Shown here one piece after another: positions 2,070 to 53,346 of a DNA stretch of 56,326 nucleotides (positions are counted from its first letter, which is position 1; every line of letters starts with the position of its first letter). The DNA is from an uncultured virus (IMG/VR IMGVR_UViG_3300009785_000018). Lineage: Duplodnaviria > Heunggongvirae > Uroviricota > Caudoviricetes. A program made the translations under genes and the position numbers. The notes beneath the pieces are model-generated. The model had not been told where the DNA came from. It made no database searches and saw nothing but the letters and a program-made list of their open reading frames with translations. The stretch lies in IMG/VR virus record IMGVR_UViG_3300009785_000018; one strand, given 5' to 3'.

Positions 2070-2339
2070 ATGACCAAATTTGATTATAAAAAGCCCACAG
2101 CGCAAATGCTGGGTAGATGGCAACCTTGGCATAAGGAGCATACTGAATTATTCAAGAAGGCGTTAAGTAAAACTGGACAGATTTGCATTATGTTAAGCCT
2201 TGCAGAACAAGACGACAGTAATCCATTCGATCCACTCACAGTTACAAATAATATTAAGAAGGTTTTATTGAACGAAGGATATACGTTTAACAAACAATAT
2301 ACCATTATTGTTGTGCCAAATATTATAGATATCAGTTAG
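2070..2339 (+). pseudogene. probably truncated HxGH-family nucleotidyltransferase
   Basis: MLGRWQPWHKEH (HxGH altered to HKEH); only 89 aa, ending at VPNIIDIS where it meets the stop of the convergent LRR gene. Confidence 0.55.
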
Positions 2340-5300
2340 GGAGTAGCAGGCTTGGCCTCTTTCCATGCACGAACTGAAAAACCAATCCGATCTCTAATTG
2401 CTGTACCGCCACCAGGGGTGGGATTAGTCTGATCTGCAGTTACCAAAGCATCACCATCAATACTCGCGATTGCCGATATATTACCACCTTGGACAAAACT
2501 GGGTGGGGACTTGCTGGGGTCATACCAGTAATAACGTATCCTCAAATTGTAGCCCGCCAAAGAACCGGTCGATTTAGCTGTAACTATCGCTCGACCGTAT
2601 TGCTGACCACCGATTGCTTCGCTATTAATAAACTCAACTACTGTTTGGCTATCGTTGTAATTAATACTTGAATTGGTTGAATGTATTGGGGTGTTTATAG
2701 TAGAGATTATTGCAATGGTATCATCATCATAAAATGGGGTAAAATCATGATTATTGTTTGTGCGAATAGAAGTAAATTCCACAGAATTATTTATATCAAA
2801 TATTGGTATGTATAAATTACTCGGAGTGTGATTTTTATAATAAGCATTGTTATTTGAATCCAAGGCTATATGAATACCCCATCCACTTTTAAAAGAATCA
2901 TACGTAACTTTACCTGAATAGCTCGTCGCGCCTGTTGTTCTGATCGGATCGGTTTCAAAAATTGCTGAAGTAATTTGTACATTGCCTGGGTCATAATATT
3001 CATGTGTTGCAAAGGTTGGAGCGTCTCCTTCAAATCTAACAATTAACAGGTTGTCGCATCCAAAAAACACACGATATCCAATCGAGGTCACATTGTCGGG
3101 AATCGTGATATCGGTTAGTTTTGAGCATCTAAAGAATGCAAAATCTCCAATCGAGGTCACACCACTGCCAATCGTGATATCGGTTAGGCTAATGCATCTA
3201 TTGAATGCGCTCTTCCCAATCGCTGTTACGCTGTCAGGAATGGTAATGCTAGGCAGGCTTGTGCAGGTATTGAATGCATCCCTTTTAATAGTGGTCAAAG
3301 TATTGGGTAGCGTGACACTTACCAGATTTGAGCAGAATCTGAATGTCCCATCTTCAATCGAGGTCACGCTGTCTGGGATGGTAATACTGGTCAGGCCAGA
3401 GCAGTCCCAGAATGCATTAGTTCCAATCGAGGTCACGCTGTCTGGGATGGTAATGCTGCTTAGGAATGTGCAGTTTTGGAATGCCGCCGTTCCAATCGCG
3501 GTCACGGCTAAGCCATTATAAGTGCTGGGAATATCCAAGGTTCCGAAAGCAGTTTCTATACAATCGGCCACTCTATACGTTCCATCACCCCTTAAGGTAA
3601 ACGTTAGGGAAGCTACTGATGCTAGCGTTCTAACACCCAAACCTCCATACTTGCTTACACCATCTCCACCATTAGCTGGGGATATGTAGCTGCTAAACGC
3701 TCCAGATGGGACGCTAGCAAATTGTCCGGAAACATCGGGACTTTCTATACGGCCAAATGGACCCACTAGATAACTAGTAGTGCCCTCAAAGTCAATCTCT
3801 AAAACTGGAGCGGTTGTACCCTCAAAGTTAATTAAAGTGACACTATCTAAGTATCGTAAAGCAGCAAATCCAATATTAGTAACACTGCTTGGTATCGTAA
3901 TGCTGGTCAGGCTAGAGCAGCCATAGAATGTCTCCTGTTCAATCAAGGTTACACCGTCGGGTATCGTAATGCTGGTTAGACTACTGCATCTAGTGAATGC
4001 CCCTTCTCCAATCGATGTCACACTGTCGGGAATGGTAATACTGGTTAGGCTAGTGTTACCACCGAATGCAGTATTTCCAATCGAAGTCACGCTGTCTGGG
4101 AGGATAATGCTAGGCAGGCTAGAGCAGCCGTTGAATGCGCCTTGCCCAATAGAAGTCACGCTGTCGGGGATCGTAACGCTGGTCAGGGAAGTGCAGGAAC
4201 TGAATACACCAATTGCAATCGAGGTCACGCTATCGGGTATGGTAATGCTGGTCAGGCTAGTGCAGTAACTGAAAGCAAAAGCGTCAATCGAGGTCACGCT
4301 GTCTGGGAGGATAATGCTGCTTGCGCTAAAGCAGGATCTGAATGCACTAGTTCCAATTGAGGTCACGCCATCGGGGATCGTAATACTGGTCAGGCTAGTG
4401 CATAAAAAGAATGCAATATCCCCAATCGAAGTCACGTTATCAGGAATAGTAACGTTGGTCAGGCTAGTGCAATTATGGAATGTAGCATTTTCAATCAAGG
4501 TCACGGCGTCGGGGATATTAATGCTAGTCAGGCTAGAGCAGTTTGTGAATGCACTATTTCCAATCGAGGTCAAATTGCTACTACTACCAATCGTTATACT
4601 AGTTGCGTTTTTGCAGTTATAGAATGCCCGTATTCCAATCGAGGCCACGCTGTCTGGCAGCGTAATGCTGGTCAGACTTTGGCAATTTTCGAATGCATTA
4701 TATCCAATCGAGGTCACTGGTAATTCATCCGGTGATTGTGATGTATCTAGATGGGTACTGGGAACATCTATTGTTCCGCTAGCAAATGTCGGGCAATTAG
4801 TCACAGAATACTCAGTGCCATCATCATTCAAGGTAAAAGTAAGACCGACATTAGAAGCGTCGATTGATTCGTTTATGTCTAAACCTGCGTATGTTGTTCC
4901 ATTTCCTGCATTTTGGTAACTTACTATTGTATTCAGTGGGACGGTAATTGTTGTGGTCAAAATGCCTTGCCAATCAGGGTATGGTATTTTGTTGGATAAG
5001 ACGGGGGCAGATGTTGCTAGACAGGTTATGCTGCCTAGACTAGAACACTGGTCGAACGCTGAGATTCCAATCGAGGTCACGCTATCGGGAATGGTTATGC
5101 TGCTTAGGCTAGTGCAATTTTCGAATGCATTGTTTCCAATTGTTTCCAAGTCTTCGGAAAGATCAATATTAATTAGGCTAGAGCAGCTTTTGAATGCACT
5201 GCTTCCAATCTCGGTCACACCGTCGGGGAGGGTGATGTTGATTAGACTTGTGCAGCTTTGAAACGCATTATTGCCAATCGAGATCAATTCTTCGGAAAGG

Positions 5301-7321
5301 TTAATACTGATTAGGTTAATGCAGTTATTGAATGCGTAAGTTTCAATTGCGGTCACATTGTCGGGAATCGTAATACTATTTAGGCTTGTGCATAATCGGA
5401 ATGACCCAGATTCAATCGACGTCAAACTGTCGGGAAGGGAAACATCATCTAAGCTAACACATTCATTAAATAACCTACATGCAATCTCGGTCACACCTTC
5501 AGGGATTACAACTTCGGTTAATCCGGTCCTTTCGAATGCGGCTTCTCCAATTGAAGTCACACTGTCTGGAATTGTGACTCTTCTTAAGAAAAGGCAGTCA
5601 CGGAATGCAGCATCCCCAATCGAGGTAATACTGTTAGGAATCACAACACTTGTTAATAAAATGCAGTTTTCGAATGTGCTATCTTCAATCGAACTTATAT
5701 TTCCGATTATGTTTTCAATGCTTTCCAAGCTAATGCAGTTTTCGAACGCAAAGGCCCTAATCCTAGTTAAGCTGTTGGGAGTTACAATGCTTTCCAAACT
5801 AGAGCATCCTTGGAAAGTGTATAGTGGAATTGTTGTTATACCGTCCCCCATATCTACGGTTGTTAGAGCTATACAATCTTTGAATAAAGCTATCCCAATC
5901 GAGGTTACACTGTCTGGAATTACTACACTTGTTAGAGCTATGCAATCTTTGAATGCACAGCTTGCAATGGAGGTCACTGGTAATGTATCCTCTGATTGTA
6001 ATGTGTCTAGGTGAGTACTTGGAATATCTAATGATCCATTGTATTCTGTTCCACAACTAGTTAAGACGTAAGCCGTACCATCTTCATTTATCTCAAATAC
6101 TATGTCAGATCCTGAATTAGAATAATTATTAGATACCGTCGCCTTTATAGTTGCAAAATATCTTGCATCGTCAGTTGATCCCTTGTCTGCATCTCCCCTA
6201 GATGGATATTGCACTATACACTCTTCATTTACATTTGCGGAAGCTCCATATACCACTGGAAATCCATTGTTAAACTTATGATATACATTTTCCTCTGGAT
6301 CATAAGCCAAAGGTGCCGAAGCTTCAGATGGGCTAAATATGGCAAATTTTTTCAATTCTCCAGTTACATTCAATTCTAATGTAGCTGCATCGGCAAACCA
6401 ATTATTGCTTTGAGGAGCAGACAAAAGTCTAGAATCATAAGACCCAAACTCTGCAGGATCAAAATCTAAAGTCTGTTGAATTCTAGTTATAGGATTAAAT
6501 GCTAAAATAGTAGTTCCGTATAATGGCGGAAAAACCGCCCATTCACCAACTGTAGTTGGGGGAGCAAATCTGGAAATAAATGCTGCATCATCAGCTTCAC
6601 CAGGTGTCAGTTCTTTTTCAGGGATTTCTTCCGTGTGTACATATAAGTCATTTTGACTTGGATTATAACATATTACGTTCCCAGTGCGTCCAGCCATGAC
6701 CGCCCAGTCCCCAACAACAGATGGCCCTGCAAAGAAGTATGGGCCAAGTGTACCATTATCTGCACTTATCTGGGGCTGACCATGTGTAACTTGCTGAACA
6801 GATTGAAAATATGGATTGACTGCAATAATTTGTGGCGAAAATGTTGGAGCAAAAACTGCCCAGTCTCCTACCGTCGCAGTACCTCCAAATGGATTAGGCG
6901 AGGATTGTGGATCGTAATCTCCAGTATAATTTAGTTCAAAGCCACCCTCATTTACTGGATCAAAACAATAAGCTATACGCTTAGAAACACTATAATCCAC
7001 TATCTCAAATACTGCATATTGTCCAACTCCAGCAACCCCACCAATTGATCTATCAAAACTTAAAGGGAATTGTTTAACAATATCATTTTGTGGATCGTAA
7101 AATACAATAGAGTCTGGACCGCCAGGAACATTCATCCCCATAGTAGCAAAATTACCAACAGCAGCTATTCCATAGGTAAATCCCCCAGTGACGGTTTGGG
7201 ATGGTGTTTGATATAGTCTCTTATATGGGTTGTAAGAGGGTATAATAGAGGTTTCTTCTTCTACGTTATATGATGGTGGAAAAACCGCCCAATCTCCTAT
7301 AGATGCACTTTTTTTTGACAT
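2336..7321 (-). CDS. large BspA-type LRR protein: N-terminal beta-propeller-like repeats plus three capped LRR blocks; putative receptor-binding protein
   Basis: About 34 23-aa repeats [23 protein letters not shown] in blocks of ~14, ~13 and ~7, each after an FxxxxDGT-Y...DIPST cap; N-terminal (V/I)G(D/E)WAVF repeats; last gene of the tail-tip run. Confidence 0.85.
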   Translation of the reverse strand: MSKKSASIGDWAVFPPSYNVEEETSIIPSYNPYKRLYQTPSQTVTGGFTYGIAAVGNFATMGMNVPGGPDSIVFYDPQNDIVKQFPLSFDRSIGGVAGVGQYAVFEIVDYSVSKRIAYCFDPVNEGGFELNYTGDYDPQSSPNPFGGTATVGDWAVFAPTFSPQIIAVNPYFQSVQQVTHGQPQISADNGTLGPYFFAGPSVVGDWAVMAGRTGNVICYNPSQNDLYVHTEEIPEKELTPGEADDAAFISRFAPPTTVGEWAVFPPLYGTTILAFNPITRIQQTLDFDPAEFGSYDSRLLSAPQSNNWFADAATLELNVTGELKKFAIFSPSEASAPLAYDPEENVYHKFNNGFPVVYGASANVNEECIVQYPSRGDADKGSTDDARYFATIKATVSNNYSNSGSDIVFEINEDGTAYVLTSCGTEYNGSLDIPSTHLDTLQSEDTLPVTSIASCAFKDCIALTSVVIPDSVTSIGIALFKDCIALTTVDMGDGITTIPLYTFQGCSSLESIVTPNSLTRIRAFAFENCISLESIENIIGNISSIEDSTFENCILLTSVVIPNSITSIGDAAFRDCLFLRRVTIPDSVTSIGEAAFERTGLTEVVIPEGVTEIACRLFNECVSLDDVSLPDSLTSIESGSFRLCTSLNSITIPDNVTAIETYAFNNCINLISINLSEELISIGNNAFQSCTSLINITLPDGVTEIGSSAFKSCSSLINIDLSEDLETIGNNAFENCTSLSSITIPDSVTSIGISAFDQCSSLGSITCLATSAPVLSNKIPYPDWQGILTTTITVPLNTIVSYQNAGNGTTYAGLDINESIDASNVGLTFTLNDDGTEYSVTNCPTFASGTIDVPSTHLDTSQSPDELPVTSIGYNAFENCQSLTSITLPDSVASIGIRAFYNCKNATSITIGSSSNLTSIGNSAFTNCSSLTSINIPDAVTLIENATFHNCTSLTNVTIPDNVTSIGDIAFFLCTSLTSITIPDGVTSIGTSAFRSCFSASSIILPDSVTSIDAFAFSYCTSLTSITIPDSVTSIAIGVFSSCTSLTSVTIPDSVTSIGQGAFNGCSSLPSIILPDSVTSIGNTAFGGNTSLTSITIPDSVTSIGEGAFTRCSSLTSITIPDGVTLIEQETFYGCSSLTSITIPSSVTNIGFAALRYLDSVTLINFEGTTAPVLEIDFEGTTSYLVGPFGRIESPDVSGQFASVPSGAFSSYISPANGGDGVSKYGGLGVRTLASVASLTFTLRGDGTYRVADCIETAFGTLDIPSTYNGLAVTAIGTAAFQNCTFLSSITIPDSVTSIGTNAFWDCSGLTSITIPDSVTSIEDGTFRFCSNLVSVTLPNTLTTIKRDAFNTCTSLPSITIPDSVTAIGKSAFNRCISLTDITIGSGVTSIGDFAFFRCSKLTDITIPDNVTSIGYRVFFGCDNLLIVRFEGDAPTFATHEYYDPGNVQITSAIFETDPIRTTGATSYSGKVTYDSFKSGWGIHIALDSNNNAYYKNHTPSNLYIPIFDINNSVEFTSIRTNNNHDFTPFYDDDTIAIISTINTPIHSTNSSINYNDSQTVVEFINSEAIGGQQYGRAIVTAKSTGSLAGYNLRIRYYWYDPSKSPPSFVQGGNISAIASIDGDALVTADQTNPTPGGGTAIRDRIGFSVRAWKEAKPATP
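3060..5980 (-). repeat. imperfect 69-bp coding repeats (three LRR blocks)
   Basis: Recurring CCAATCGAGGTCAC and GAATGC at ~69-bp period. Confidence 0.9.
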
Positions 7322-7379: not shown

Positions 7380-10300
7380 TTATGCATTCGGTAAACTATA
7401 TGAGACACTTAAACCGTCATAATTTGTTCCATATCCAATTGCATTAGCTGGAACATTAATGGTTGTGGCTGATATCCTTTCAAAATTCGTCGCGTTGGGC
7501 TCGGCGATGCTTGTGTCTATTGGGTTTAATGTTGGGGCGTTTTTCGAAAGGAAGTTAACTGTGGCTAGATTATTACAATCCTTGAAAGTATAAGGTCCAA
7601 TCGAGTTCACGCTGGCTGGGAACGTAATGGTAGTCAAGTTAGGCATGGTAGTGAAAGCACCCCGTCCAATTTCCCTTACGCCGTTGGGAATCGCAATAGT
7701 GTTGAAGGCAGTGTGGCCGAACGCACCCTCTTCAATCACTTTCACGCTATTGGGAATCGTAAAGCTGTTCAGGCTATCGCAGTGACCGAATGTACCCCTT
7801 GGAATTGAGGCAAGGTTGACGGGTAAGACAGCGCTAGTCAGGCTACTGCAGTCAAAGAATAACTCTGTTCCAAGTGTTTGTACACTATAAGGGATGAAAA
7901 TACTGGTCAGGCTACGGCAGTTGGCGAATGCCTGAGCTGCGATCAATTCCACGCTGTTAGGAATCGTAATACTACTTAGGCTAGTGCAGCCTCGAAATGC
8001 AAGAGAATAAATAAATCTCACACTGTTAGGAATCGTAATGCTAGGCAGGCTAGAGCAGCCGTCGAATGACTGTTGCCCAATATGGGTCACTCCGTCGGGG
8101 ATCGTAACGCTGGTCAGGGAAGTGCAGTTACCTAATAACATACCTGCAATCACTCTCACTCTGTCGCCGAAGGAAATGCTGCTTAGGCTTGTGCAGCGAT
8201 TGAATGCACCAATGTCAATGAAGTTTACGAAGTCGTGGATCGTAATACTGGTCAGGCCAGAGCAGCCAAAGAATGCCCAACTCCCAATTGTGACCACGCT
8301 GTCTGGGATTATAATGTTAGTTATGTTAGCGCAGTTTAAGAATGCAGAATTTCCAATCGCGACCACTGGTAATTCATCCGGTGATTGTGATGTATCTAGA
8401 TGGGTACTGGGAATTTCTTTGTCACCTGAGGCGGATTTAAGACATTCGATTAGAGTATATTCATCGCCTCGATCGTTCAGTTGGAAGGTAAACTCTGGAG
8501 CAAGGGCATAAATTGTTCTGTCTATATTGAAAAAGTCTCTAATATTACAATTATCATCGCCAAGGAATTCAAATTCATCAATTCTATACTCTCCGATTGC
8601 TTCATCAAAGAGATAACTTGGCCGATCTACATCTCCGAGATTTCTGTAAGGAAAGATATGAATATCAGAGATTTTATTTCCTACATATATCTCTTGATTT
8701 AACCCAATGCCGTCTATAAATAAATGTGAATCTATAGGATTTGCAGGAATAGTAACATTTGTACCAAAGGATTTGTATATTAATTCGTCCTGCATACTAA
8801 TATCCCATCCTCTATTTAAATTTTCAATATCTATAGATGGATTGTAATAAGAAGATCCAGAATATCCAACACTACCTCCGCTAAACTCAATTGAATACGC
8901 ATTTTCATCAACAAAGCCCAAGGGGTTGATTGTTTTCAACAAACTTCGATCAAAACATATACCAGAATTAAAAACTGCAGCACCAGTTAATAATTTTGGT
9001 CTTTCCGTTATATTTGGAACATAATTATTTTTATTTAAAGATTGGTCTTTCCACTCGGTAACAAAAACCTCTCCACTCTGTGCAAACTGTTTTACATTTT
9101 CAATATTAATATAGTTATTGTAAAAATAAATATCTTTACTTTCTCCATCACTAGCTCTTTGTACGGTCATAATGCACCCAGTAAAGCCTGGATTCACCCT
9201 AGAAAGAGATAATAGCAAATTAGCGACGTGAAAGTTATAAGGATAGTTGGTGTTATAGCCTGAAACCTCAATCGTAGGTAGGTCTTCGAAACATGCACCA
9301 CTTTTAGAAGCTATGAAATCTCCAGTTAAAGTAAATCCAACGTCATCGCCAGTAGCTTCTGGAAGCTCTCCAAAAACTACTTCACCAACTGTATCCGCCA
9401 TAAATAAATCTTCAAAACCAGAAATAGTCGTGTCATATATTTTTTCATATGTATATACACCTCTTTTAACAGCTGAAAGGAAATTCTGGTCGACTATACC
9501 AGTTTCTGTAATATATCCAGCGATCCCGCTTCCCGTTATATCGTAATATCCAGTGATTTCTCCAGTATATGATATAAATTTTCTTACAATTTCTGTGGTG
9601 TATGCGCCTGGCTGAAGATTCACTTCTCCGTCTGGCAAAAAGTTGGCTGGATCAAAGAAAGATGCGCCGTAACCAGTTCTAATAATCCCAGTAAGCTGTT
9701 CTTCGTTAAAAGTTCCAGTGCCAATAATATTATTGACTATTCCTGTAATTACCTGCGATCCAAAAGGAACGAATCCAGAAAAACGAGTTGTTGACATTCC
9801 TGCTAAATTAATATCGGTATCAACGATACCACTTCCAAGTCCAGTTAAAAGCAGCTCATAATCATTAACAATCTGTCCAGTAGGTTCAGCATAACCAGTT
9901 AAAATTCCTGTTCCTACGCCAGTTTGAATAACACCAGAAGCATCTAAGCCAGAAACCAAACCAGTCTTAGAAATAGAAACTGTATTTATTCCTGTAACTA
10001 CAGCATCTTCGGTATGAGAAAAATCTCTAAAAAAAGCCTTATCTCTAAATATGTCACCAGTCTGCCCAGAAAGATGAGACAGCGAAACACCAATGTTTGC
10101 ACCATTAAAATCGGCGTAATAGCTAGTAACAGTAATAGATCCAGATAGTCCGTCGAAGTCTGCAACAAAAGGCTGTATGTTCAAATAAGAACTAGACCTT
10201 ATAGTTGAAGGTAAATTTCCTCCAGTTAGACTATAAGCATATTCTATTTGGCCAAAATTTGTATAAAATAATAAATCAGCTACTCCGCTTAAATTTTGTG

Positions 10301-10880
10301 ACTGAGAAGGGGTCAAAAGAAATTTTGCTCCGCCTAACAGTTCATATCCCGTTACTTCTTGATAAGTGTCTATGGAAAAATCTACTGGAACATCTGAAGA
10401 AACTAGTTCTCCACTAAATACCGTAAAAGATAATGGTGGGTCAATATTATTTATAAAACCCGTTAAGGTTTCATCGGCTACTATTTTATCAGAACTTGTA
10501 GTAATTGAATACGATGGGGTTTGTCCAAAAAAAGTAAATCCAATATTTTCTGGTTGCTCGTTAATAGCAAATACTCCAGATATTTTTCCATTCGGTAAGG
10601 TTTCTCCTACAACTTTTGGAACCCCGTTTATGAAATATTCGTGTTGGTTATTCTTTAAATTTCCAGAAATAATAAAACTACTATTATTAGAATAACTATC
10701 TACAAAGCCCGTGTTTCTGTCAAAAATTTTACCACCAGCAAATTTATAGTCTATGTTATAGTCTCCAGTTAAACCAACATGAATATCTGAAGATCTGGTC
10801 TTGGTTATAACGTTAAAAACATAACTATAATCACCAGTTTGATCTGCAATGCTTCTAAAATTTTTGCCGCTTAATATCAT
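7380..10880 (-). CDS. tail-tip-type structural protein fused to a C-terminal BspA-type LRR domain
   Basis: TG/SG-rich beta-type N-terminal ~790 aa, then FTFQLNDRGDEY cap and ~12 LRR repeats; start overlaps the upstream stop. Confidence 0.75.
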   Translation of the reverse strand: MILSGKNFRSIADQTGDYSYVFNVITKTRSSDIHVGLTGDYNIDYKFAGGKIFDRNTGFVDSYSNNSSFIISGNLKNNQHEYFINGVPKVVGETLPNGKISGVFAINEQPENIGFTFFGQTPSYSITTSSDKIVADETLTGFINNIDPPLSFTVFSGELVSSDVPVDFSIDTYQEVTGYELLGGAKFLLTPSQSQNLSGVADLLFYTNFGQIEYAYSLTGGNLPSTIRSSSYLNIQPFVADFDGLSGSITVTSYYADFNGANIGVSLSHLSGQTGDIFRDKAFFRDFSHTEDAVVTGINTVSISKTGLVSGLDASGVIQTGVGTGILTGYAEPTGQIVNDYELLLTGLGSGIVDTDINLAGMSTTRFSGFVPFGSQVITGIVNNIIGTGTFNEEQLTGIIRTGYGASFFDPANFLPDGEVNLQPGAYTTEIVRKFISYTGEITGYYDITGSGIAGYITETGIVDQNFLSAVKRGVYTYEKIYDTTISGFEDLFMADTVGEVVFGELPEATGDDVGFTLTGDFIASKSGACFEDLPTIEVSGYNTNYPYNFHVANLLLSLSRVNPGFTGCIMTVQRASDGESKDIYFYNNYINIENVKQFAQSGEVFVTEWKDQSLNKNNYVPNITERPKLLTGAAVFNSGICFDRSLLKTINPLGFVDENAYSIEFSGGSVGYSGSSYYNPSIDIENLNRGWDISMQDELIYKSFGTNVTIPANPIDSHLFIDGIGLNQEIYVGNKISDIHIFPYRNLGDVDRPSYLFDEAIGEYRIDEFEFLGDDNCNIRDFFNIDRTIYALAPEFTFQLNDRGDEYTLIECLKSASGDKEIPSTHLDTSQSPDELPVVAIGNSAFLNCANITNIIIPDSVVTIGSWAFFGCSGLTSITIHDFVNFIDIGAFNRCTSLSSISFGDRVRVIAGMLLGNCTSLTSVTIPDGVTHIGQQSFDGCSSLPSITIPNSVRFIYSLAFRGCTSLSSITIPNSVELIAAQAFANCRSLTSIFIPYSVQTLGTELFFDCSSLTSAVLPVNLASIPRGTFGHCDSLNSFTIPNSVKVIEEGAFGHTAFNTIAIPNGVREIGRGAFTTMPNLTTITFPASVNSIGPYTFKDCNNLATVNFLSKNAPTLNPIDTSIAEPNATNFERISATTINVPANAIGYGTNYDGLSVSYSLPNA
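7560..8370 (-). repeat. imperfect 69-bp coding repeats (LRR block)
   Basis: Same unit, more diverged. Confidence 0.8.
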
Positions 10881-23814: not shown

Positions 23815-23816
23815 TT

Positions 23817-24722: not shown

Positions 24723-24723
24723 T

Positions 24724-35400: not shown

Positions 35401-38400
35401 ATTAAGTCCGAAATTAGAGATTGAGACTGTAAAAAAGATTTAATCGCATTGGCGCTGTTTGCATTTGTTTCTTGAAGCTTGTCAAATTGTGCGGCTAATA
35501 TATCTGAGGGTGACTCCTTTTTTCCTGCAGATGAAACACCTCCAAGTATAGCGCCTCCTACAGTCCCAGCTATCATTGCAGGCAGTCCAAACAATGATCC
35601 AGCGGACATGCCCGTCGAAGCTCCTTGCGCCGCGCCTTCGAAAATATTTCCAGTTCTTTTAGCAGCATCTTCATCTTGACCCGCTTTTCCAGCTATGAAT
35701 TCAGCGCCACGACCTATCGTTGGAGCAGACATACTCAAAACCATACTGCCTAAAAATCCCCTTTGAGCAATTCCTTGGTTTCTTTGGAATCTCCTATTTG
35801 AAATATCGGCTTTTATCATTTTCTTAGCCATAGGTGTCATAGTCTTATCCTGCTCAAAACGTTTTTCTATACCTCTGAAACTCGGCATACCTAATCTCCC
35901 TCCTATTCCTTTACGGCTTTGTTTATCTATTGCTGCTTGAGCTCCCTTAACTTGTTGTTCGGCTATTTGTTGGTCTATTTCAAAAAATCTATTACCAACA
36001 GAAGTTTTAACAGCGGTTCTAACTTGTTGTCTAAGCTTTTTGCCTTCTGGGGTACTATTCAAATCTTTCATGCTCATCCCCCTTCTTCCCATCTGCGTTT
36101 TTAACTCTGATCGATATTCATCATTTAATACCATCGATCTGTCTGCTTGCGAGAACCTAGTATTTGCATTTACTGGAGTTGCGCCTTGGAATCGACTTGT
36201 CTGATCTTGTCTCCTTACGTCTTCTTCTATGTCACGTCGCTGCAGAGCTTTCTCTCTTCGTAGTTCCTGCTCTCTTATCTTTTGCGCTTCAAGTGCTCGC
36301 CGTTTCTTGGCTTCTCTTTCTTGAGCTATACGGTCGGCATTATCAAGACTATCTTGTCTCCTTGCAAACTCACCAAAATTATCGGCTCCAGTTGGAGAAC
36401 CCCTAGGTGGTCCAATGAAACTTGAACTTCTAAGGTTTTCAAAAGCTCCTGAAGCTCCTTTATTTATTAGGTTTCTTTTGGTAGCTTCTTTGGCAGTTGG
36501 TCTGCCTACTGGATTTACTCCCTGAGACCTTTCTTTAAATCTGTTTGTTCTAACAGATCCAATAGTATTATCGGCATAAATACTATTTCCCCCTCTTTTA
36601 ATAATAGCACTAGCCGTAGCGGGTAAAATTTTGTTCTGATTTCTACTTGAAGCCCCTCCTGGATTGGTACCAGCATTCTTTCGTAGCCATTCTTTATCCT
36701 TAACGGTCAAGGGTAACCCGTTTTCTAGTTTGCCTTTTATAGCGATTTCTCTCTTGCTTCCTGCAGCATAATTAAACGTGCTCTTATTCATCATACCGCC
36801 CTTCATCATTTCTTTATTTAAAACGATGTCCCCAGACTTATTAGGTATGATAAGCTCTTCACTATTTACAACTGCTGGACCTTTTTTTCCTCTGCCATAA
36901 TTAAATTTTTCAATAACCCTTGCTTGCGCTTTCGATGTAGCACCTCCTACATTTCTACCAATAGCATTTTGTTCTCTAATAATTGCTTCTGGAATTGTTC
37001 CGCCCGCGTTATTAGACACTCCACGATTAAGCGCGATAGCCTTGGTTGAACGCTTTATATTATATCCTCCAGCGCTACCTGATATAATTAATCCCCTCTT
37101 TCTTAAGTGTTCTGAAAATCTAACTTCGGATCTTTCTTGAGCTTTTTGAATGGCAAGTTGTCTTTCTAAAATACCAAGAATAACTTGTTCTTTTTGTGCT
37201 TGCGAAGTAGCTAAAGCAAACTGCTTTTTCTCTTCTTCCGTACCTTGTTTTAATAAAGCTACAGTAGCGGTTTGAGTTTGTTCTCTATTTTTTTGTCCTT
37301 TGTTAAGTCCAGTTAATGAAAGTAGAGAAGCACCGCCTTGAACCAATGTGTTAGCAAATAGATTTTTAACAACTGCAGCAGCAGCAACAAGTCCAGGTCC
37401 ACTTAAAACCTTCGCGAAGCCTTCTGCGGCATCACGTAAAAAGCCGAAATTCTTGGCTCCTATAATAGCATCATTTAAAAGACCAATGAATGCATTAGAC
37501 GCACCAAGTTTGTTTCCTTGAAAAGCTTCTAAAATAGAATTTATGTTCCCAACAAGATCTTTAATTGCGTCACCAGTCCCCAATGCTCCAACGCTGTTAA
37601 AAATTTTTCCAATATTGGAATTAATTTGTTTGCTTATTCCCCCAATAGTTTGGTTATACTCTTCGTTTGCCTTATTAGCTTCATTGGTAGCCTCACCTGA
37701 TTTTAAAGCTGCACTATCAGCGACACTATACGCACTAGACAAATCTTGAAATGCGGAGATTAACTTAGAAATTTGAAACCCGCCAGCAGCCACTTGACCA
37801 ATTTGAGCAGCTAAAGATTGATTACCTGCATCTTGAGCCGCTTTATAAGCAATTGAGACTTGACGCAATTTTTCCATTCCGCTTGAGTTATCATCAATTG
37901 CAACTTTTAAGTCTTTTAATTCTGCTATACGATTCGGTAAGCTCAGTCTAGTAAAAGCAGTCTTAAGGCCTTGACCCAAGGTTGCGCCACCAAGACCAGT
38001 TCTCTGCTTCATGGCCGTAATAACACCCAGTAACTCATTAAATGAAACTCCAGCACCCTGAGCTACAGCAGCAGAACGAGCCAGCGCAGCTGCTAAATCA
38101 TCCGAAGAAACGGCGAAAGATGTTTCAACAGCACGAAGTTTGTTGATAACTTCAGTTGACGTCAGAGCTTCTTTCGCGAAGCCATTCAGGGTTGCCGTAA
38201 TTGCGGCAACTGCTTCGTTAGTTTTTAAAGTTGTTAATCGGACCAGAATTAGGGAATCTTCAGTACGTTTCAATGTTTCTCCCACCGCCAAACCCTGACG
38301 AGCAAATTCTTGAGCAGTTTGTGCTACCGTTTGAAAAGATTGTCCAGTTTTTTTCGCAATATCAAATAATTCATTTCCAAACTTTGAAATTGTACCGCTT

Positions 38401-38717
38401 GATTGACCCAAAATACTATTAATAGCTGTAAGCTGCGATTCAACCTCTACGATTGTACTTACTAGCTTTGTGAAAGATCTTCTTACTCCCTCAATAACTG
38501 CAACAGACGCTCCGAACGCAATAACACGGGCATTAGAAGCTTCTAGAGACTTAGTAAACTCATCAGCCTTCCCCGTAATACGACCCAAGGCCATCTGACC
38601 CTTTTTAGTGTCTAAATTAACGCCTTTACGTTCGAGTTTGCGGACAGCGGTATTTACGTTCCGATTTAAATTCCGCGTATCCGCTCCTACTATAATGTCT
38701 AAGTCGCTTTGAGCCAT
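32496..38717 (-). CDS. tail tape measure protein
   Basis: 2073 aa, helical, A/G/Q-rich; TP901-type core (LFDIAKKTGQSFQTVAQTAQEFARQG, FAVSSDDLAAALARS, GATLGQGLKTAFTRL); follows the tail tube gene. Confidence 0.9.
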   Translation of the reverse strand: MAQSDLDIIVGADTRNLNRNVNTAVRKLERKGVNLDTKKGQMALGRITGKADEFTKSLEASNARVIAFGASVAVIEGVRRSFTKLVSTIVEVESQLTAINSILGQSSGTISKFGNELFDIAKKTGQSFQTVAQTAQEFARQGLAVGETLKRTEDSLILVRLTTLKTNEAVAAITATLNGFAKEALTSTEVINKLRAVETSFAVSSDDLAAALARSAAVAQGAGVSFNELLGVITAMKQRTGLGGATLGQGLKTAFTRLSLPNRIAELKDLKVAIDDNSSGMEKLRQVSIAYKAAQDAGNQSLAAQIGQVAAGGFQISKLISAFQDLSSAYSVADSAALKSGEATNEANKANEEYNQTIGGISKQINSNIGKIFNSVGALGTGDAIKDLVGNINSILEAFQGNKLGASNAFIGLLNDAIIGAKNFGFLRDAAEGFAKVLSGPGLVAAAAVVKNLFANTLVQGGASLLSLTGLNKGQKNREQTQTATVALLKQGTEEEKKQFALATSQAQKEQVILGILERQLAIQKAQERSEVRFSEHLRKRGLIISGSAGGYNIKRSTKAIALNRGVSNNAGGTIPEAIIREQNAIGRNVGGATSKAQARVIEKFNYGRGKKGPAVVNSEELIIPNKSGDIVLNKEMMKGGMMNKSTFNYAAGSKREIAIKGKLENGLPLTVKDKEWLRKNAGTNPGGASSRNQNKILPATASAIIKRGGNSIYADNTIGSVRTNRFKERSQGVNPVGRPTAKEATKRNLINKGASGAFENLRSSSFIGPPRGSPTGADNFGEFARRQDSLDNADRIAQEREAKKRRALEAQKIREQELRREKALQRRDIEEDVRRQDQTSRFQGATPVNANTRFSQADRSMVLNDEYRSELKTQMGRRGMSMKDLNSTPEGKKLRQQVRTAVKTSVGNRFFEIDQQIAEQQVKGAQAAIDKQSRKGIGGRLGMPSFRGIEKRFEQDKTMTPMAKKMIKADISNRRFQRNQGIAQRGFLGSMVLSMSAPTIGRGAEFIAGKAGQDEDAAKRTGNIFEGAAQGASTGMSAGSLFGLPAMIAGTVGGAILGGVSSAGKKESPSDILAAQFDKLQETNANSANAIKSFLQSQSLISDLISSGDLDQQKILGIEDATNKTLRESGLTSEQIEKLTSATSNDRGDVAVELQRQLNSQTFEAKNRLDVTKILEDTTGSRVVQTDFSRNREKMIMNLARNGQGQGASGLSMLEGFDKLLSKMGMSSNSFIVEDDPFSDISEDQKKELKNINLSNVDFSAMDQAMKNSGDSIGEFSKSISEGLSSGRFGGIQKALMRLGIDIDDLPSAIRESSDALHEYGNIISESFKSGGGFQDMANRRSMTRTRVGLGINSAAFGRAQMENFNVQRSINNASSFRDQLSGPTEINRERSALLMSGSRFGLTGSGRDDNFNKIQALKVKEEEVLTGTNKNKIFDDTIGGIDELINPIVTSGTSFDEEKLTPVLAKMATGISSLEELNNIRTELKNIFSGTEGVETTLNSLVLSAAESLELEKIASNDRRENINISNNQEAILRKLRTDQSVRSQQGSEMGMSVSEVMGRDDPTIAGKVRAQGEYTSTKGVKKVLTNEAGEIREGFVAALEEKDEDGKFKIDRFTQASMLSEFDRNIKNTGTEVDENGQFKFNKYDVAGRANEAIRRMGEGQYGSRMETAGFGVLTNEITSRGKTNDALIASTPSSVREAFTERKDVVNRDAGLSGLVVPQNKEQARLRDQYIKEYSRIQNNNNLGRYDGPKSFHTKSGMETTERHQIDQSAIFNNPFKNAYSERGMFNHGTEMYDQIFNSSVLESGDFDIKSGMPLDFNKNNARLGYGAASMAPVGVDLDDPRENYMFSQSQGKSDNAAFRSMMGLPNLIEGGDANAYQYGTDSAVKDTKPAPEETTNPLIEELKKTNTALSALAESKNNTDFLTEILRSLEQGKSDKTITGDEMGTAIKAIDDFKSSDKTQGDRGNLEAVIQKLVENQEITFSELLEQIKQDKQNSNVEQLADLNQNIATFITTLNEGVESKVETFNNFTLSFDGVEENFANTEAMIESMRTRLEGLEASLRGDVVAPA

Positions 38718-43489: not shown

Positions 43490-44641
43490 TTAGACGATAA
43501 GACCGAACAGATTGCGAGGCTCTACTGCAAGGTAACCAACTTCAGCTTCACCGAACATGCCAGTCTTGCCCTCACGAGCAACAAACTGATCGTCAGGAGA
43601 AACATTGAAGTTTGCACCAGTTTCACCGTCTGCGATTTCAACCTTAAGAAGACCGTTAACATCAATCTTACGAGAGATGCCTAGAACGAACTGTTCACTT
43701 CCACCAGCAAATACACTGGTTGTGCTAGAGTCGAATTTTTCACCAATATCAGGGAACTCAGTATTACCAGCAAGAGTATCGAAGATGGTATTGAAGTCTT
43801 GTCCAAGGCCCATTTCGTTAAGCTGAATAATTTCAGTTCCGTAGATTGAAGGAAGACCGCCAGCAGCATAGACTGCTTCACGAACGCTTTCAGGAGCAGA
43901 AACTGCTGTTGCACCACTAGTCGTTTCAGTACCAGCGCGAGTATTCATTGGCTGATAAGCAATTGCACGAATCTCTTCGACCATTTCAGGAGACATTACC
44001 AGAGTATCGATAGCACGAGTGCTATTGTCGAGACCTGCTGGTGTATCACCAAGACCAGAACTTAAGACACGAGCAGCCATTGTTTGAAGACGGTTAAAGT
44101 CATCAAGTCCAAGTTGACCTGCTGTGTTCGAACGGATAAGGTGTTTACCACCGTTAGTTGTCGAATTTGCAAGTGAATCTAGGATAGGCTGGATGCCTTG
44201 GCGTTTCATCTTGAAGCGAACTTCGTTGATAAGCTTGCGGATACCGTTCTCTGCGTGGCTGATACGACCAGCTTTAAGATACTTCTTATAGAACGCAATT
44301 GCGGAACTAATGAAAGCAGTGCTGAAAGCAACGTCGTCTGCACCAGTAAGTTGGTTGTAAGCAAGATCTCCTGGGCGGCTTGAGAACGATACACGAACAT
44401 AATCTGCTTCAGAAATGTTATGATAGTCATCAAGAGGGATAGTACGAGGCTCATACTCACCAACAGAAAGAGTGTCGTAGAAACCGTCGATTACGTTTGT
44501 TTCATCAAGTACTTTCTTAGCAAGAGGACCGACAAGACTAGCGAATACTCTCATTGCATCACGAGATGCTTCGTTGTCACGAGATCCCATAGCTTTGATA
44601 AGTTCGATATGTTCAGTTTTTTCTTTTAATTTAATTTTCAT
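43490..44641 (-). CDS. major capsid protein
   Basis: 383 aa after portal, protease and accessory gene; LVMSPEMVEEIR and LPSIYGTEIIQL segments typical of HK97-fold capsids; strong terminator. Confidence 0.8.
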   Translation of the reverse strand: MKIKLKEKTEHIELIKAMGSRDNEASRDAMRVFASLVGPLAKKVLDETNVIDGFYDTLSVGEYEPRTIPLDDYHNISEADYVRVSFSSRPGDLAYNQLTGADDVAFSTAFISSAIAFYKKYLKAGRISHAENGIRKLINEVRFKMKRQGIQPILDSLANSTTNGGKHLIRSNTAGQLGLDDFNRLQTMAARVLSSGLGDTPAGLDNSTRAIDTLVMSPEMVEEIRAIAYQPMNTRAGTETTSGATAVSAPESVREAVYAAGGLPSIYGTEIIQLNEMGLGQDFNTIFDTLAGNTEFPDIGEKFDSSTTSVFAGGSEQFVLGISRKIDVNGLLKVEIADGETGANFNVSPDDQFVAREGKTGMFGEAEVGYLAVEPRNLFGLIV

Positions 44642-49214: not shown

Positions 49215-49281
49215 ATGATTGATGTAAAAAATAAATTAAGAAAACCTAAAAACAGACAACTACCATAGTTTATTGCGTTAA

Positions 49282-49308
49282 TTTCTACATTTTTCAAAAA
49301 TGTGTAAT
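49282..49308 (+). promoter_or_regulatory. putative phage late promoter for the right-hand LRR operon (variant)
   Basis: TTTCTA-N15-TGTAAT; spacer one base shorter than the other copies. Confidence 0.55.
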
Positions 49309-49372
49309 ATAGTATATGGTAGATTCACGGGATTTAATTGAAAATGGAGTTTAAAATTAATATATAAATATT

Positions 49373-49696
49373 ATGAAAAATATTAGATTATTACAGGACG
49401 AAATACATACTTCTTTTGATAAAAGTCTCTTCGAAACTAGAACTTTTGATGCTAAAATTTCTTCTTTATCTACTGATCATCCTATTTCACATCGAAATGA
49501 TTCTCATATGTATACGCATATAGTTCAAGAACTTAATAGAAAATATCATTTTTTTGGTCTTGATTCATTTATTCAAATTCCTGTAGATGCTGGATTTAGA
49601 CCTGTAAACTTAACACCATTTTTCGCTGGTTCAATTTCACTTGAGAATGGATCTAGGCTTCTTTCCGAAGACTCATCTTTATTACTTCTTGAATAA
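49373..49696 (+). CDS. hypothetical protein ending in an 8-periodic LLxE motif
   Basis: C-terminus ISLENGSR-LLSEDSSL-LLLE; first sizeable gene of the operon. Confidence 0.6.
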   Translation: MKNIRLLQDEIHTSFDKSLFETRTFDAKISSLSTDHPISHRNDSHMYTHIVQELNRKYHFFGLDSFIQIPVDAGFRPVNLTPFFAGSISLENGSRLLSEDSSLLLLE

Positions 49697-49720
49697 TCTA
49701 ATTAATTTTTAACAATTACC

Positions 49721-50884
49721 GTGGCAGACAAAACAATAACAGAACTTACAGAAATTACTTCAGCTAATTCGACAAATGACTTTTTACCAGTTGTTGATAC
49801 TAGCGCCGTAGAAACTAAGAGGATCATTTTATCTAATTTGCCTATGAGCAACGAAGAGATTGGTCGATCCTACCCCTTTACCACGGACTTTCAAACAGGC
49901 AATGAGAGGACACGGAATGTATCCTCAATTGCATCAAGCGAATTCTTTAATAATACCAATTTAAGCTCTATTTATATTGGAAGCAACGTGACCTTGATTG
50001 CATTGTCTGCATTCAAAAATTGCACAAACCTTAGCAACGTTACAATCCCCGATAGCGTGAGATCGATTAACTCTTTTGCATTCGACAATTGCACAAGCCT
50101 AACCAGTATTACGATCCCTGAAAGAGGGGTCTCTATTGGAACTAGCGCATTCAAAGGCTGCTCTGGCCTGACCAGTATTACAATTCCCGATGGTGTGACC
50201 TCGATTGAAGGCAATACATTTTTTGAATGCACCGGTCTTACCAGTATTACCATTTCCGACAGCGTTACCGCGATTGGAAGTAGTGCATTCTATGGCTGTT
50301 CTGGCGTAAGCAGTATCACGATTCCCGATAGTGTAACCTCGATTGGGGCCAATGCATTCCGAGACTGCACTAGCCTGACTAGCTTTATTATTGGCAACAG
50401 CGTGACCTCGATTGAAGGTAGTACATTCAAAGACTGCACTGGCCTTGCCAGCATAACCATTCCCGATAGCGTTACCACGATTTCAAGTAATGCATTCAAT
50501 GGCTGCACTAGCCTAGCCAGCGTTACGATTCCTGATAGTGTAACCTCGATTGGCGGTGATGCATTCCGAAACTGCTCTAGCCTTACCAGCATTACGATCG
50601 GCAATGGCTTGACTTCGATTGGACCTGTTGCATTCTTTGGCTGCACTGGCCTGACAAGCGTCACCATTCCCAACAGTATGACTTCAATTGGGATTTTTGC
50701 ATTCAGTCAATGCACTAGCCTAGCCACAATCACCTCTCTTGCTACAGATGCCCCAAGTGTTGAAACTACCTCGTTTAATAATGTTACGGCTACCACAATT
50801 ACTGTCCCAGCTGGGTCTACACAGAGTTACAAAGATGAAGGAGATGGAACAACATACGGGGGCTTAGAAATCATAGAGGCTTAA
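49721..50884 (+). CDS. BspA-type LRR protein (~12 repeats) with shared N-terminal module
   Basis: GTG start; ADKTITELTEITSAN..DFLPVVD; TSIGxxAFxxC repeats. Confidence 0.9.
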   Translation: MADKTITELTEITSANSTNDFLPVVDTSAVETKRIILSNLPMSNEEIGRSYPFTTDFQTGNERTRNVSSIASSEFFNNTNLSSIYIGSNVTLIALSAFKNCTNLSNVTIPDSVRSINSFAFDNCTSLTSITIPERGVSIGTSAFKGCSGLTSITIPDGVTSIEGNTFFECTGLTSITISDSVTAIGSSAFYGCSGVSSITIPDSVTSIGANAFRDCTSLTSFIIGNSVTSIEGSTFKDCTGLASITIPDSVTTISSNAFNGCTSLASVTIPDSVTSIGGDAFRNCSSLTSITIGNGLTSIGPVAFFGCTGLTSVTIPNSMTSIGIFAFSQCTSLATITSLATDAPSVETTSFNNVTATTITVPAGSTQSYKDEGDGTTYGGLEIIEA

Positions 50885-53190
50885 TATTATGTCAGATAAA
50901 AAAATATCAGAACTTACACAAATCATTTCAGCTAATCCGATAACTGACGTTTTGCCGATTGTGGATATCAGTTTAAATCAAACCGATAAAATAACTATAG
51001 GCAAGCTTCCAATGAGTGCTTCTGCTATAGCACGGTCTTATCCCTACACTATAGACTTTATTTCAGGGACAGAACAGACGCGAGATCTGACACTTATTGA
51101 TACTTCAAGCGGGTATCAAAGCAATTCGAATTTAGAGCTTATTTACATTGGCAGTCATGTGACCTCGATTGGGGACAGTGCATTCTATAACTCCAATACC
51201 CTTACTAGCATTACCATCCCCAATAGCGTGACCTCGATTGGGAGTCTTGCATTTAGTAACTGCTCTAGTCTAACAAGTGTTACAATTCTTGACGGTGTAG
51301 GCGCGACTTCGATTGGAACTAGCGCATTCGGTGGTAACGCTAATCTAACCAGCGTTACGATCCCAAACAGTGTGACCTCGATTGGAGAGCAAGCATTTTT
51401 TAGCTGCGGCCTAGCCAGCATTACGATCGGCAATGGCGTGACTTCGATTGGAGTTAGTGCATTTTTTGACTGCACAAGCCTGGCTAGCGTTACCATCGGC
51501 AACAGCGTTACCACGATTTCAAGTAATGCATTCAATGACTGCACTAGCCTAGCCACAATCACCTCTCTTGCTGAATCTGCCCCAAGTGTTGAAACTAACT
51601 CGTTTAATAATGTTGCGGCTACCACAATTACTGTCCCAGTTGGAGCAACAGTAAGTTACCAAAATGCAGGAAATGGAACAACATACGGAGGTTTAATAAT
51701 CGCAGAACTCGAAGAGGCTTAATATTATGGCAGACAAAAAAATATCAGAACTTACAGAACTTACTTCGGCTAATGCGGTAACTGACGTTTTACCGATTGT
51801 GGATATCAGTTCTAACGAAACTAAGAAAATTAGCCTAGCTGATTTACCAATTAGCGATGTCGCCATCGCCCAATCTATGCCCCACACTACCGACTCTCAG
51901 TTAGGGGTGGTGCAGACAAGAAATCTGACAACTATTGATAATTCAAGCGGGTATTCAAATAATACCAATTTAGAATCTATCTATATAGGGAATAACGTTA
52001 CATCGATTGGAAGTAGTGCATTCTATTACTGCTCTAACCTGACCAGCGTTGTCATACCCAACAGTGTGACTTCGATTGGAGATAATACTTTCATTGGCTG
52101 CTTTGACCTGACCAGTATTAACATCCCAGACAGCGTGACCGCGATTGGATCTCAGGCATACATGTATTGCCAAAGCCTGACCAGCATTAAGATCCCCGAC
52201 AGCGTTACCACGATTGGGAGTAGTGCATTCTATTACTGTACTAACGCAACAAGCATTACGATCGGCGACAGTGTGACCTCGATTGGAAGTGATGCATTCT
52301 CTGCCTGCAATAGTATTACTAGCGTTGATCTACCCGACAGCCTTACTTCGATTGATAGCAGTTTGTTTACAACATGCGCTAACCTCACAAGTATTAATGT
52401 ATCCAGTGAAAATGCATTATTTTCATCAATTGACGGTGTTCTATTTAGTAAGTCTGCAGATAATTTAGTTATTTTTCCATATGGTAAAAGTAGTGCATAT
52501 TCTATTCCCAATAGCGTGACTTCGATTGGAAATCGGGCATTCAGATTCTGTAATAACCTGACCAGCATTACGATTCCCAGCAGCGTGACCTCGATTGGAG
52601 ATTCGGCATTCCGAAGCTGCTCTGGCCTTACCAGCATTACCATCCCCAATAGCGTGACCTCGATTGGAGATTTTGCATTCTATGGCTGCTCTGGCGTAAG
52701 CAGTATCACGATTCCCGATAGTGTAACCTCGATTGGGGCTAATGCATTCGCTTTCTGCTCAGGCTCAACCAGCATAACCATTCCCAATAGCGTGACTTCG
52801 ATTGGAGAGCGTGTATTCCTTGGCTGCACTAGCCTAACCAGCATTACTATACCCGACAGCGTGACCTCGATTGGAGTGAGTGCATTCCAAAGATGCACTA
52901 GCGTAACCGATATTACCATCGGCGACGGTGTGACCTCGATTGGGGATTTTGCATTCAATCAATGCACCAGCCTAACCAGTATTACCATCGGCGACGGTGT
53001 GACCTCGATTGGTCAGACCGCCATCTCTCAAACTGGCCTGACTAGTCTTACCATCCCCGATAACGTTACCTCGACTGTATATCAAGCATTTGCCTTTAAC
53101 ACTAGCTTAACAACCGTTACAATTGGCAATGGTTTGGGCAATATTGCTGGCTTTGCATTCAGAAATTGTACGTCGCTATCAACACTCAGT
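49980..53190 (+). repeat. imperfect 69-bp coding repeats across three LRR genes
   Basis: Recurring GTGACCTCGATTGG...GCATTC...TGC. Confidence 0.9.
50889..51722 (+). CDS. BspA-type LRR protein (~7 repeats) with shared N-terminal module
   Basis: [26 protein letters not shown] repeats; YGGL C-cap. Confidence 0.9.
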
Positions 53191-53346
53191 TGCACTGCTA
53201 CGGATGCTCCAACGCTTGGAACTACTCCATTTGATGGCTGTACTAGCTTAAGCGAAATTCAAGTTCCAAATTCAGCAGTAGCGGATTATCAAGCAAAAGG
53301 AGAGGGAAATAACAAATATGGCGGCCTAGAAATCGTAGGCGTTTAA
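51727..53346 (+). CDS. BspA-type LRR protein (~17 repeats) with shared N-terminal module
   Basis: [26 protein letters not shown] repeats with an [11 protein letters not shown] insertion; YGGL C-cap. Confidence 0.9.

What the first reader, a model, noticed from the sequence alone, without database searches (positions are those of the whole stretch)
2336..53346. Phage LRR repertoire whose modules appear to be exchanged between five genes at two distant loci
Seen: five BspA-type LRR genes (~82 repeats by hand count) flank the virion module. Otherwise divergent genes share discrete DNA patches: 4715-4764 = 8364-8413 (50/50 nt), 4163-4196 = 8094-8127 (34/34), reverse complement of 4888-4925 = 51650-51687 (38/38, ~47 kb apart on opposite strands), 50284-50359 vs 52674-52749 (74/76). 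Identity includes synonymous sites. Known: BspA/TpLRR domains are surface adhesins. Inference: recurrent recombination or gene conversion among 69-bp modules builds a combinatorial set of virion binding surfaces, loosely analogous to VLR cassette assembly, with no RT or invertase visible in this window. I cannot tell whether this has been described.
Basis: partly seen in the sequence, partly recalled or inferred. Interest (0 to 1): 0.85.

Follow-up and report, generated by a model that had tools for sequence, protein, structure and literature searches.

The report
Phage repeat genes share bacterial DNA
A marine virus of bacteria carries five probable host-binding genes built from short repeats that copy DNA patches between each other, and whose repeat DNA closely matches surface-protein genes of one group of marine Verrucomicrobia, suggesting the virus draws its binding surfaces from a bacterial gene family by ordinary recombination.

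Summary
The four patches are exact and far beyond chance (9 matches of 30 nt or more versus 0.4 expected; 0 of 300 permutations) and recur in other assemblies. They are short conversion tracts (24-76 nt; two lie in caps), not swapped 69-bp modules: seven same-species alleles of gene A keep repeat number and order but are hypervariable at four positions per repeat. New: the repeat DNA is GC-rich in an AT-rich phage and carries the position-specific codon pattern and caps of chromosomal surface-protein genes of one clade of marine Puniceicoccaceae-family bacteria; sister phages G004/G006 carry the pattern of a second clade, although G004 is close to this phage. Best reading: host-derived LRR heads on tail-associated proteins, varied by ordinary homologous recombination (paralogues, other phages, probably host genes) plus selection. 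No reverse transcriptase, invertase or silent cassette found; a relative encodes a UvsX-like recombinase. Ongoing host re-templating, virion display and the true host are inferred, not shown. This scan noted patch-trading, Verrucomicrobia-like LRR fibres before on other DNA.

The parts
2336..7321 (-). Gene A, 1661 aa: beta-propeller, three capped BspA-type LRR blocks, C-terminal domain
6137..7321 (-). Gene A N-terminal beta-propeller (Kelch/WD-like fold), phage-like low GC at four-fold sites (0.21)
5012..5977 (-). Gene A LRR block 1 (14 repeats): partly ameliorated, little allelic variation (8-11 of 322 residues)
3815..4717 (-). Gene A LRR block 2 (13 repeats): hypervariable among alleles (45 and 74 of 301 residues), most host-like DNA
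3023..3505 (-). Gene A LRR block 3 (7 repeats) with host-type N- and C-caps
3399..3404 (-). Three clustered substitutions versus assembly G000; the window allele completes a 24-nt match to genes B and C (candidate polymorphic conversion)
4163..4196 (-). 34-nt patch shared with gene B 8094-8127 (within repeats)
4715..4764 (-). 50-nt patch shared with gene B 8364-8413: N-cap with a phage-specific 7-residue insertion
4888..4925 (-). 38-nt patch shared with gene D 51650-51687: C-cap of block 1
7380..10880 (-). Gene B, 1166 aa: conserved phage N-terminal region of unknown fold plus one LRR block (7542-8366, 12 repeats)
32496..38717 (-). Tape measure protein (marks the virion module between the two loci)
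43490..44641 (-). Putative major capsid protein (by position and conservation only); used as phage marker
49721..50884 (+). Gene C, 387 aa: tail-fibre-type N-terminal 40 aa plus 12 repeats
50284..50359 (+). 76-nt patch (74/76) shared with gene E 52674-52749; not found in 101 bacterial genomes of the candidate host family
50889..51722 (+). Gene D, 277 aa: same N-terminus plus about 7 repeats; tandem paralogue of C and E
51650..51687 (+). 38-nt patch equal to gene A; a second allele of D differs at two residues inside it
51727..53346 (+). Gene E, 539 aa: same N-terminus plus about 18 repeats
53374..56028 (+). Gene F, 884 aa: same N-terminal module but no LRR; replaced by other genes in relatives

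Best explanation
The five genes encode tail-associated adhesin-like proteins in which a phage anchor is fused to BspA-type LRR solenoids captured, caps included, from secreted surface proteins of marine Puniceicoccaceae-family Verrucomicrobiota (origin: shown by DNA; virion display: inferred). Because all repeats share a near-uniform DNA scaffold, ordinary homologous recombination (a relative encodes a UvsX-like recombinase) copies tracts of tens of bases between repeats, genes and loci (shown), moves blocks between phages (shown for G004/G006), changes block and repeat number over longer times (shown between relatives), and probably keeps importing repeat DNA from the bacterial gene family (inferred). 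Selection keeps the scaffold and favours change at repeat positions 6, 7, 10 and 11. No dedicated diversification machinery is involved.
For: Patches beyond the codon-permutation null in four phages. Species-specific homogenisation: the A/B cap patch reads differently in G003, where it is again shared between A and B. Polymorphic tract: D allele P0131 differs at two residues inside the A-D patch while 7 of 7 A alleles keep them. Alleles P0124 and P0125 differ at 69 of 301 residues in block 2 but 5 of 402 and 1 of 222 in the flanking domains; 43 of 120 changes need 2 or more bases versus 10 of 53 outside LRRs, p 0.03. GC at four-fold sites 0.40-0.53 in LRR blocks versus 0.14-0.26 in 12 other genes. 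Exact matches of 24 nt or more per 1000 repeat pairs: self 13.3, bacterial G013 22.0, G098 20.8, G014 12.7, G015 6.0, sister phages G003 1.5, G004 0, G006 0, gut control 1.6. Synonymous codon identity: window-G013 0.65, self 0.63, G003 0.54, G004 0.46; G004-G079 0.75. Two codon patterns map on two recA clades, 100/100; bacterial genes are chromosomal with signal-peptide-like starts. 24 of 30 viral proteins with the same N-terminal 40 aa hit tail or virion PHROGs.
Against: No phage-bacterium tract longer than 36 nt exact (46 nt for G006) or 88 of 100 nt was found, so no single recent import is caught. The host is not independently fixed: the phage's PEP-CTERM-like tail matches best a different lineage of the family (G038-G045) whose LRR codon pattern does not match. 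Allele data are protein-only; new residues fit the window's own repeat profile slightly better than the bacterial one (mean log P -2.51 versus -2.75) and mostly have no long paralogous donor. Per-repeat variability correlates with best nucleotide match to bacteria (rho 0.61) but not with synonymous identity (rho 0.27, p 0.14). Near-identical assemblies show invariant arrays. A non-LRR tail gene also has a clustered allelic patch (30 changes). Nothing places A or B on the virion except gene position (uninformative).
Confidence: 0.7

Rival explanations
1. One-off capture: each phage lineage took LRR genes from a bacterium once, then amplified and homogenised them internally; no continuing input from the chromosome.
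For: A star-like decay from one consensus fits the identities window-bacteria 0.65, G003-bacteria 0.54, window-G003 0.54. The C/E patch is absent from 101 family genomes and the cap insertion is phage-specific, so those tracts are internal. No long phage-bacterium tract.
Against: The window keeps 152 of 219 GC-ending consensus codons (0.69), as many as the bacteria themselves (0.64-0.78), while 30% of four-fold sites in core genes differ from G003; caps have decayed to 70-77% while repeats reach 88%. G004, as close by capsid, has the other pattern in all arrays examined (5 versus 60 diagnostic codons), so at least one full replacement happened after the radiation.
Confidence: 0.35
2. Programmed cassette assembly (VLR- or vlsE-like) with dedicated donors or enzyme.
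For: Uniform scaffold, hypervariable positions and inter-locus patches.
Against: All LRR DNA lies in intact open frames; no silent array in G000 or the 141.7-kb G003; no site-specific recombinase among 94 G003 ORFs; near-identical assemblies are invariant; the bacterial genes show the same variable positions.
Confidence: 0.05
3. Diversity-generating retroelement acting on the LRRs.
For: Dense non-synonymous change at few codons per repeat.
Against: No RT in G000, G001, G003 or G006 (none complete by CheckV); inferred base changes not adenine-biased (T 35, A 49, G 55, C 42); no template repeat among matches; variable region spans about 900 nt.
Confidence: 0.02
4. Patches or alleles are assembly artefacts caused by abundant similar bacterial repeats.
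For: Metagenomes hold many contigs 82-95% alike to the repeats (71-221 contigs under 90% per run); many members of the G004-type cluster are frameshifted or truncated in the arrays.
Against: Identical patches in several assemblies; frames intact; alleles keep exact length and irregular repeats; caps patches contain phage-specific sequence.
Confidence: 0.05

Closest known systems
BspA/TpLRR surface proteins (Pfam LRR_5, PF13306; PDB 4GT6, 4FS7, 4CP6 PcpA, 6MLX TpLRR)
   Same: 23-residue repeat and fold; caps shared with Puniceicoccaceae-family chromosomal genes.
   Different: No signal-peptide-like start or bacterial C-terminal tail; fused to phage anchors instead; sits in a virion module.
Phage mosaicism by relaxed homologous recombination with chromosomal DNA (De Paepe et al. 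2014, PMC3945230, abstract seen); tail-fibre exchange with cryptic prophages (recalled)
   Same: Homology-driven uptake of diverged DNA from the host chromosome into a phage.
   Different: Donor here is a bacterial housekeeping-context surface-protein family, not a prophage; recombinase found is UvsX/RecA-like, not Rad52-like; tracts are sub-gene.
Ig-like domains shared by phage virion proteins and bacterial surface proteins (Fraser et al. 2006, title seen in the reference list of PMC4759559; content recalled)
   Same: Bacterial surface binding domain displayed on phage structural proteins.
   Different: Tandem repeat scaffold allows patchwise conversion; DNA-level match resolves to a bacterial clade.
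Agnathan VLR assembly; Borrelia vlsE and Neisseria pilE/pilS conversion (recalled)
   Same: Short-tract copying into a uniform scaffold with hypervariable positions.
   Different: No silent cassette library, no single expression locus, no dedicated enzyme, no evidence of high-rate variation within a clone.
Diversity-generating retroelements (BPP-1 type; recalled)
   Same: Hypervariable residues in a probable receptor-binding protein.
   Different: No RT, no template repeat, no adenine bias.

Membership tests
BspA/TpLRR (LRR_5) | Pfam LRR_5 above cut-off, 23-residue repeat | tested here: met
   A 774 bits, B 254 bits; C-E via identical copies in G001/G002; segmentation
BspA/TpLRR (LRR_5) | TpLRR solenoid fold | tested here: met
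   Block 2 model pLDDT 85; top Foldseek hits 4GT6, 4FS7, 4FDW, 4CP6
BspA/TpLRR (LRR_5) | Export signal and cell-surface anchor | tested here: not met
   By inspection: phage N-termini are propeller, unknown or tail-fibre-type; bacterial counterparts have signal-like starts; no predictor was run
Phage tail fibre / receptor-binding protein | Virion-attachment N-terminus | tested here: inconclusive
   C-E: 24 of 30 viral proteins with the same first 40 aa hit tail or virion PHROGs (30 chosen of 57 such loci), the module itself hits none; A, B: position only
Phage tail fibre / receptor-binding protein | Presence in virions and host binding | not testable with these tools
   needs proteomics and binding assays
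VLR / vlsE-type cassette conversion | Silent donor cassettes and an incomplete or single expression locus | tested here: not met
   all LRR_5 hits lie in long open frames in G000 and G003
VLR / vlsE-type cassette conversion | Short conversion tracts between homologous repeats | tested here: met
VLR / vlsE-type cassette conversion | High-rate variation within a clonal population | tested here: inconclusive
   near-identical assemblies invariant; only contigs, no raw reads
Diversity-generating retroelement | Reverse transcriptase | tested here: not met
   0 of 4 related records, none complete (G011 is unrelated)
Diversity-generating retroelement | Adenine-specific change relative to a template repeat | tested here: not met
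   no template repeat; no A bias in changes inferred from proteins
Invertase/shufflon tail-fibre switch | Site-specific recombinase and inverted recombination sites | tested here: not met
   none among 94 G003 ORFs of 95 aa or more, two boundary ORFs not scanned; only 12-13-nt imperfect inverted pairs in three flanks
Host-derived domain captured by homologous recombination | DNA closer to a cellular lineage than to sister phages | tested here: met
Host-derived domain captured by homologous recombination | Donor lineage is the proven host | tested here: inconclusive
   family supported weakly by PEP-CTERM-like tail (37 of 101 genomes), clade not; no other DNA match

The most novel reading that the evidence does not exclude
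These phages use their host's own hypervariable LRR surface-protein family as a standing template library: during infection, recombination keeps rewriting the phage's receptor-binding repeats from chromosomal genes, a host switch is followed by wholesale replacement of all arrays with the new host's repeat DNA, and the codon pattern of the arrays records the current host clade. Phage and bacterium would share one recombining pool of binding surfaces.
Probability: 0.35. Interest if true: 0.85.

Novelty: new variant of a known kind. Interest (0 to 1): 0.62.

Why it matters
It gives an enzyme-free route to variable phage binding surfaces and points to the bacterial chromosome's own adhesin genes as source material. 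The clade-specific codon pattern is a testable host marker for uncultured phages of marine Verrucomicrobiota, and the 'shared pool' idea can be tested directly in paired virome and cell metagenomes. If only internal conversion operates, it is an ordinary case of repeat-gene evolution.

Tried and rejected
Protein search with LRR block 3 was swamped by long generic BspA proteins. Gene B search in viral contigs gave nothing. Cluster look-ups for C and E found no exact record, so no alleles for them. Laying contigs of four runs on locus 1 was dominated by foreign repeats; no long piece over block 2, no allele DNA; depth there is no copy number. G011 came in by LRR similarity but is an unrelated phage and was dropped from the RT argument. 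The window test put two clade-B loci in the clade-A pool; superseded. Two-cluster linkage of repeats split off one outlier only, and the two-class codon classifier calls any non-B repeat A (552 of 583 gut repeats), so neither is used. A beta-barrel-like phage gene had no match in 201 genomes of the order; non-LRR DNA gave only short weak hits. Atlas searches of the E and B N-termini stayed under 0.9; capsid and B N-terminus had no solved relative. Length variants in the G004-type cluster that are frameshifted or truncated were treated as likely misassembly. My early note that the variable residues lie on the concave face is withdrawn: they lie in the loop between the two strands of each repeat; exposure was not computed. 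A dated repeat tree, GENECONV and RDP were not run.
Full report
Setting. The window is a 37.5% GC phage segment with a tape measure gene and a long virion module. The held record G000 (69,907 nt) is a second assembly differing at 17 positions. Relatives found with the putative capsid gene are G001/G002 (identical), G003 (141.7 kb, 91%), G004/G005 (90%) and G006-G010 (62-63%); 9 of 10 searched hold LRR_5 genes. Runs holding locus 2 are marine metagenomes.

Observation. All four patches are exact as stated. Among the five genes there are 20 exact matches of 24 nt or more, 14 between genes, 5 between loci. Permuting synonymous codons within repeat position and residue gives on average 0.42 matches of 30 nt or more against 9 observed, 0 of 300 reaching it; G003, G004 and G006 show the same excess. 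Flanks fall to 21-39 of 45. Other assemblies repeat the patches. Two of the four patches are in caps; the rest mostly span the conserved part of a repeat. So the unit is a short tract, not a 69-bp module.

Exchange inside the phage. Nearest neighbours of 50 canonical repeats are not enriched in the same gene (14.6 observed, 16.8 random). The A/B cap patch has another sequence in G003, again shared by its A and B. A second allele of D differs at two residues inside the A-D patch while 7 of 7 full-length A alleles keep them: a tract that is polymorphic, read at protein level only. The C/E patch is absent from 101 of 101 bacterial genomes searched with three mismatches. C, D and E also share starts and intergenic DNA, so tandem duplication explains part of locus 2.

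Alleles. The cluster of gene A has 8 members, 7 full length, all 1661 aa in register. Four differ from the window by 3-9 residues and one by none; P0124 and P0125 differ widely, and from each other at 69 of 301 residues in block 2 against 5 of 402 and 1 of 222 in the end domains. Variation concentrates at repeat positions 6, 7, 10, 11 (14, 12, 14, 15 of 31 repeats; 0-1 at positions 1, 2, 4, 12). 43 of 120 changes need at least two bases versus 10 of 53 outside LRRs (p 0.03), without adenine bias. Against my reading: most new residues have no long paralogous donor, near-identical assemblies are invariant, and a non-LRR gene also has a clustered patch. Repeat and block numbers do change between relatives, though several length variants look misassembled.

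Origin. Four-fold sites are 0.40-0.53 GC in the LRR blocks and 0.14-0.26 in 12 other genes and about 0.2 in the N-terminal parts of A and B. A consensus pattern scan of GTDB genomes gave 106 stretches, 80 listed; 10 are Verrucomicrobiota, most others gut Clostridia, which served as a control chosen by the same pattern (64 loci after dropping 6 overlapping). Exact matches of 24 nt or more per 1000 repeat pairs were 13.3 within the window, 22.0, 20.8, 12.7 and 6.0 to G013, G098, G014 and G015, 1.5, 0 and 0 to G003, G004 and G006, and 1.6 to the control; G004 and G006 instead gave 40-43 to G079 and 17-35 to G070 and none to G013-G015. These bacterial genes lie among housekeeping genes, with signal-like starts and the same caps. 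Modal codons differ by position in two patterns; six diagnostic codons, picked from those modes and so partly circular, count 193 to 15 for the window, 107 to 8 for G003, 5 to 60 for G004, 6 to 56 for G006. In a survey chosen by protein family (35 of 101 genomes hit, 30 loci fetched) only G013, G014, G015, G098, more weakly G016 and G101, resemble the window, and G065, G069, G070, G079 resemble G004/G006. The groups are two recA clades, 100/100; G015, 41% GC, joins the first by gyrB, so genome codon bias does not explain the pattern. By capsid, G004 groups with the window and G003 (93/90), so the pattern does not follow the phage tree. Seven further viral loci split 6 to 1 between the two patterns.

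Continuing or once? The window keeps 152 of 219 GC-ending consensus codons, equal to the bacteria (0.64-0.78) and above G003 (0.51), while 30% of four-fold sites in core genes differ from G003. Caps are 70-77% like bacterial caps, repeats up to 88 of 100. Equal-size pools give the nearest neighbour to clade-A bacteria for 0.50 of repeats, self 0.37, G003 0.08; bacterial repeats lie near consensus, which favours them. No long identical tract was caught, and star-like decay also fits the identities. I put continuing import at a little over even, given a host of that clade, which is itself unproven: the PEP-CTERM-like tail points to the family but best to another lineage.

Machinery and location. 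No RT in four related, incomplete records. G003 encodes a UvsX-like recombinase, exonucleases and an ERCC4 nuclease, and no integrase or invertase among 94 ORFs; the matching part of the window's own genome is not held. Block 2 folds as a TpLRR solenoid, the A N-terminus as a beta-propeller. The first 40 residues of C-F recur on tail fibres. Display on the virion and binding remain inferred.

Literature. Ten searches (listings only unless stated) found no report of LRR exchange between a phage and bacterial chromosomal genes; the library lacks most subscription journals and I opened no supplements. PMC3945230: abstract and section list. PMC7765460: one table row naming a BspA-family gene in a Vibrio jumbo phage. 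PMC2843621: passages. PMC4759559: two passages, one the reference line for Fraser 2006. VLR, vlsE, pilE, DGR and cryptic-prophage tail exchange are recalled. Earlier notes of this scan on other DNA already describe patch-trading LRR fibres and a Verrucomicrobia look; they are unchecked and not support. They were read after the host result was obtained; one prompted the codon-position check.

Verdict. Real, non-programmed conversion among host-derived LRR genes; new variant of a known kind. The two-clade DNA match against the phage tree is the part a specialist would find surprising. Interest 0.62.

Noticed in passing
L002:5525-6148 (outside the window): Phage gene ending in a PEP-CTERM-like tail (motif name recalled; no NCBIfam hit); matches C-termini in 37 of 101 family genomes, best in low-GC G038-G045; also present in G003.
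   Followed up: partly
window 14251-16299: Non-LRR tail-region gene with an allele carrying 30-31 changes, most between residues 478 and 590.
   Followed up: partly
window 16594-25614: Three genes (2406, 301, 309 aa) on the opposite strand inside the virion module, conserved in G003 and G004, not matched in G006; no Pfam or PHROG hit.
   Followed up: no
L036:9541-16026 (G004): Genes B and A are fused; proteins with 98-100% identical first 1140 residues carry different arrays (1600, 1746, 2862 aa), and an 86% relative has no LRR at all; spacer domains between blocks also share 50-68-nt exact tracts.
   Followed up: partly
L034:1-937 and L039:6995-9532: G004 gene C is a mosaic of G006 gene C (start) and G006 gene D (134 of 138 nt identical) although their capsids are only about 62% alike: block exchange between phages.
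   Followed up: yes
L295 (G013:C2 about 164400-165400): Bacterial LRR locus broken by frameshifts and stops; pseudogene or assembly error not resolved.
   Followed up: no
L286, L289, L293, L294: The bacterial LRR family itself has a homogenised scaffold with non-synonymous excess at the same four positions (clade B pN 0.58 versus pS 0.30), and an unnamed C-terminal tail.
   Followed up: partly
L028-L032 (G003): Many sugar-nucleotide, glycosyltransferase and sulfotransferase genes, DNA polymerase III alpha, ribonucleotide reductase, three tRNAs; terminase lies far from the virion module.
   Followed up: no
window 27046-27058 and 1172-1183: Other clustered substitutions between the window and G000 outside LRR genes.
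   Followed up: no
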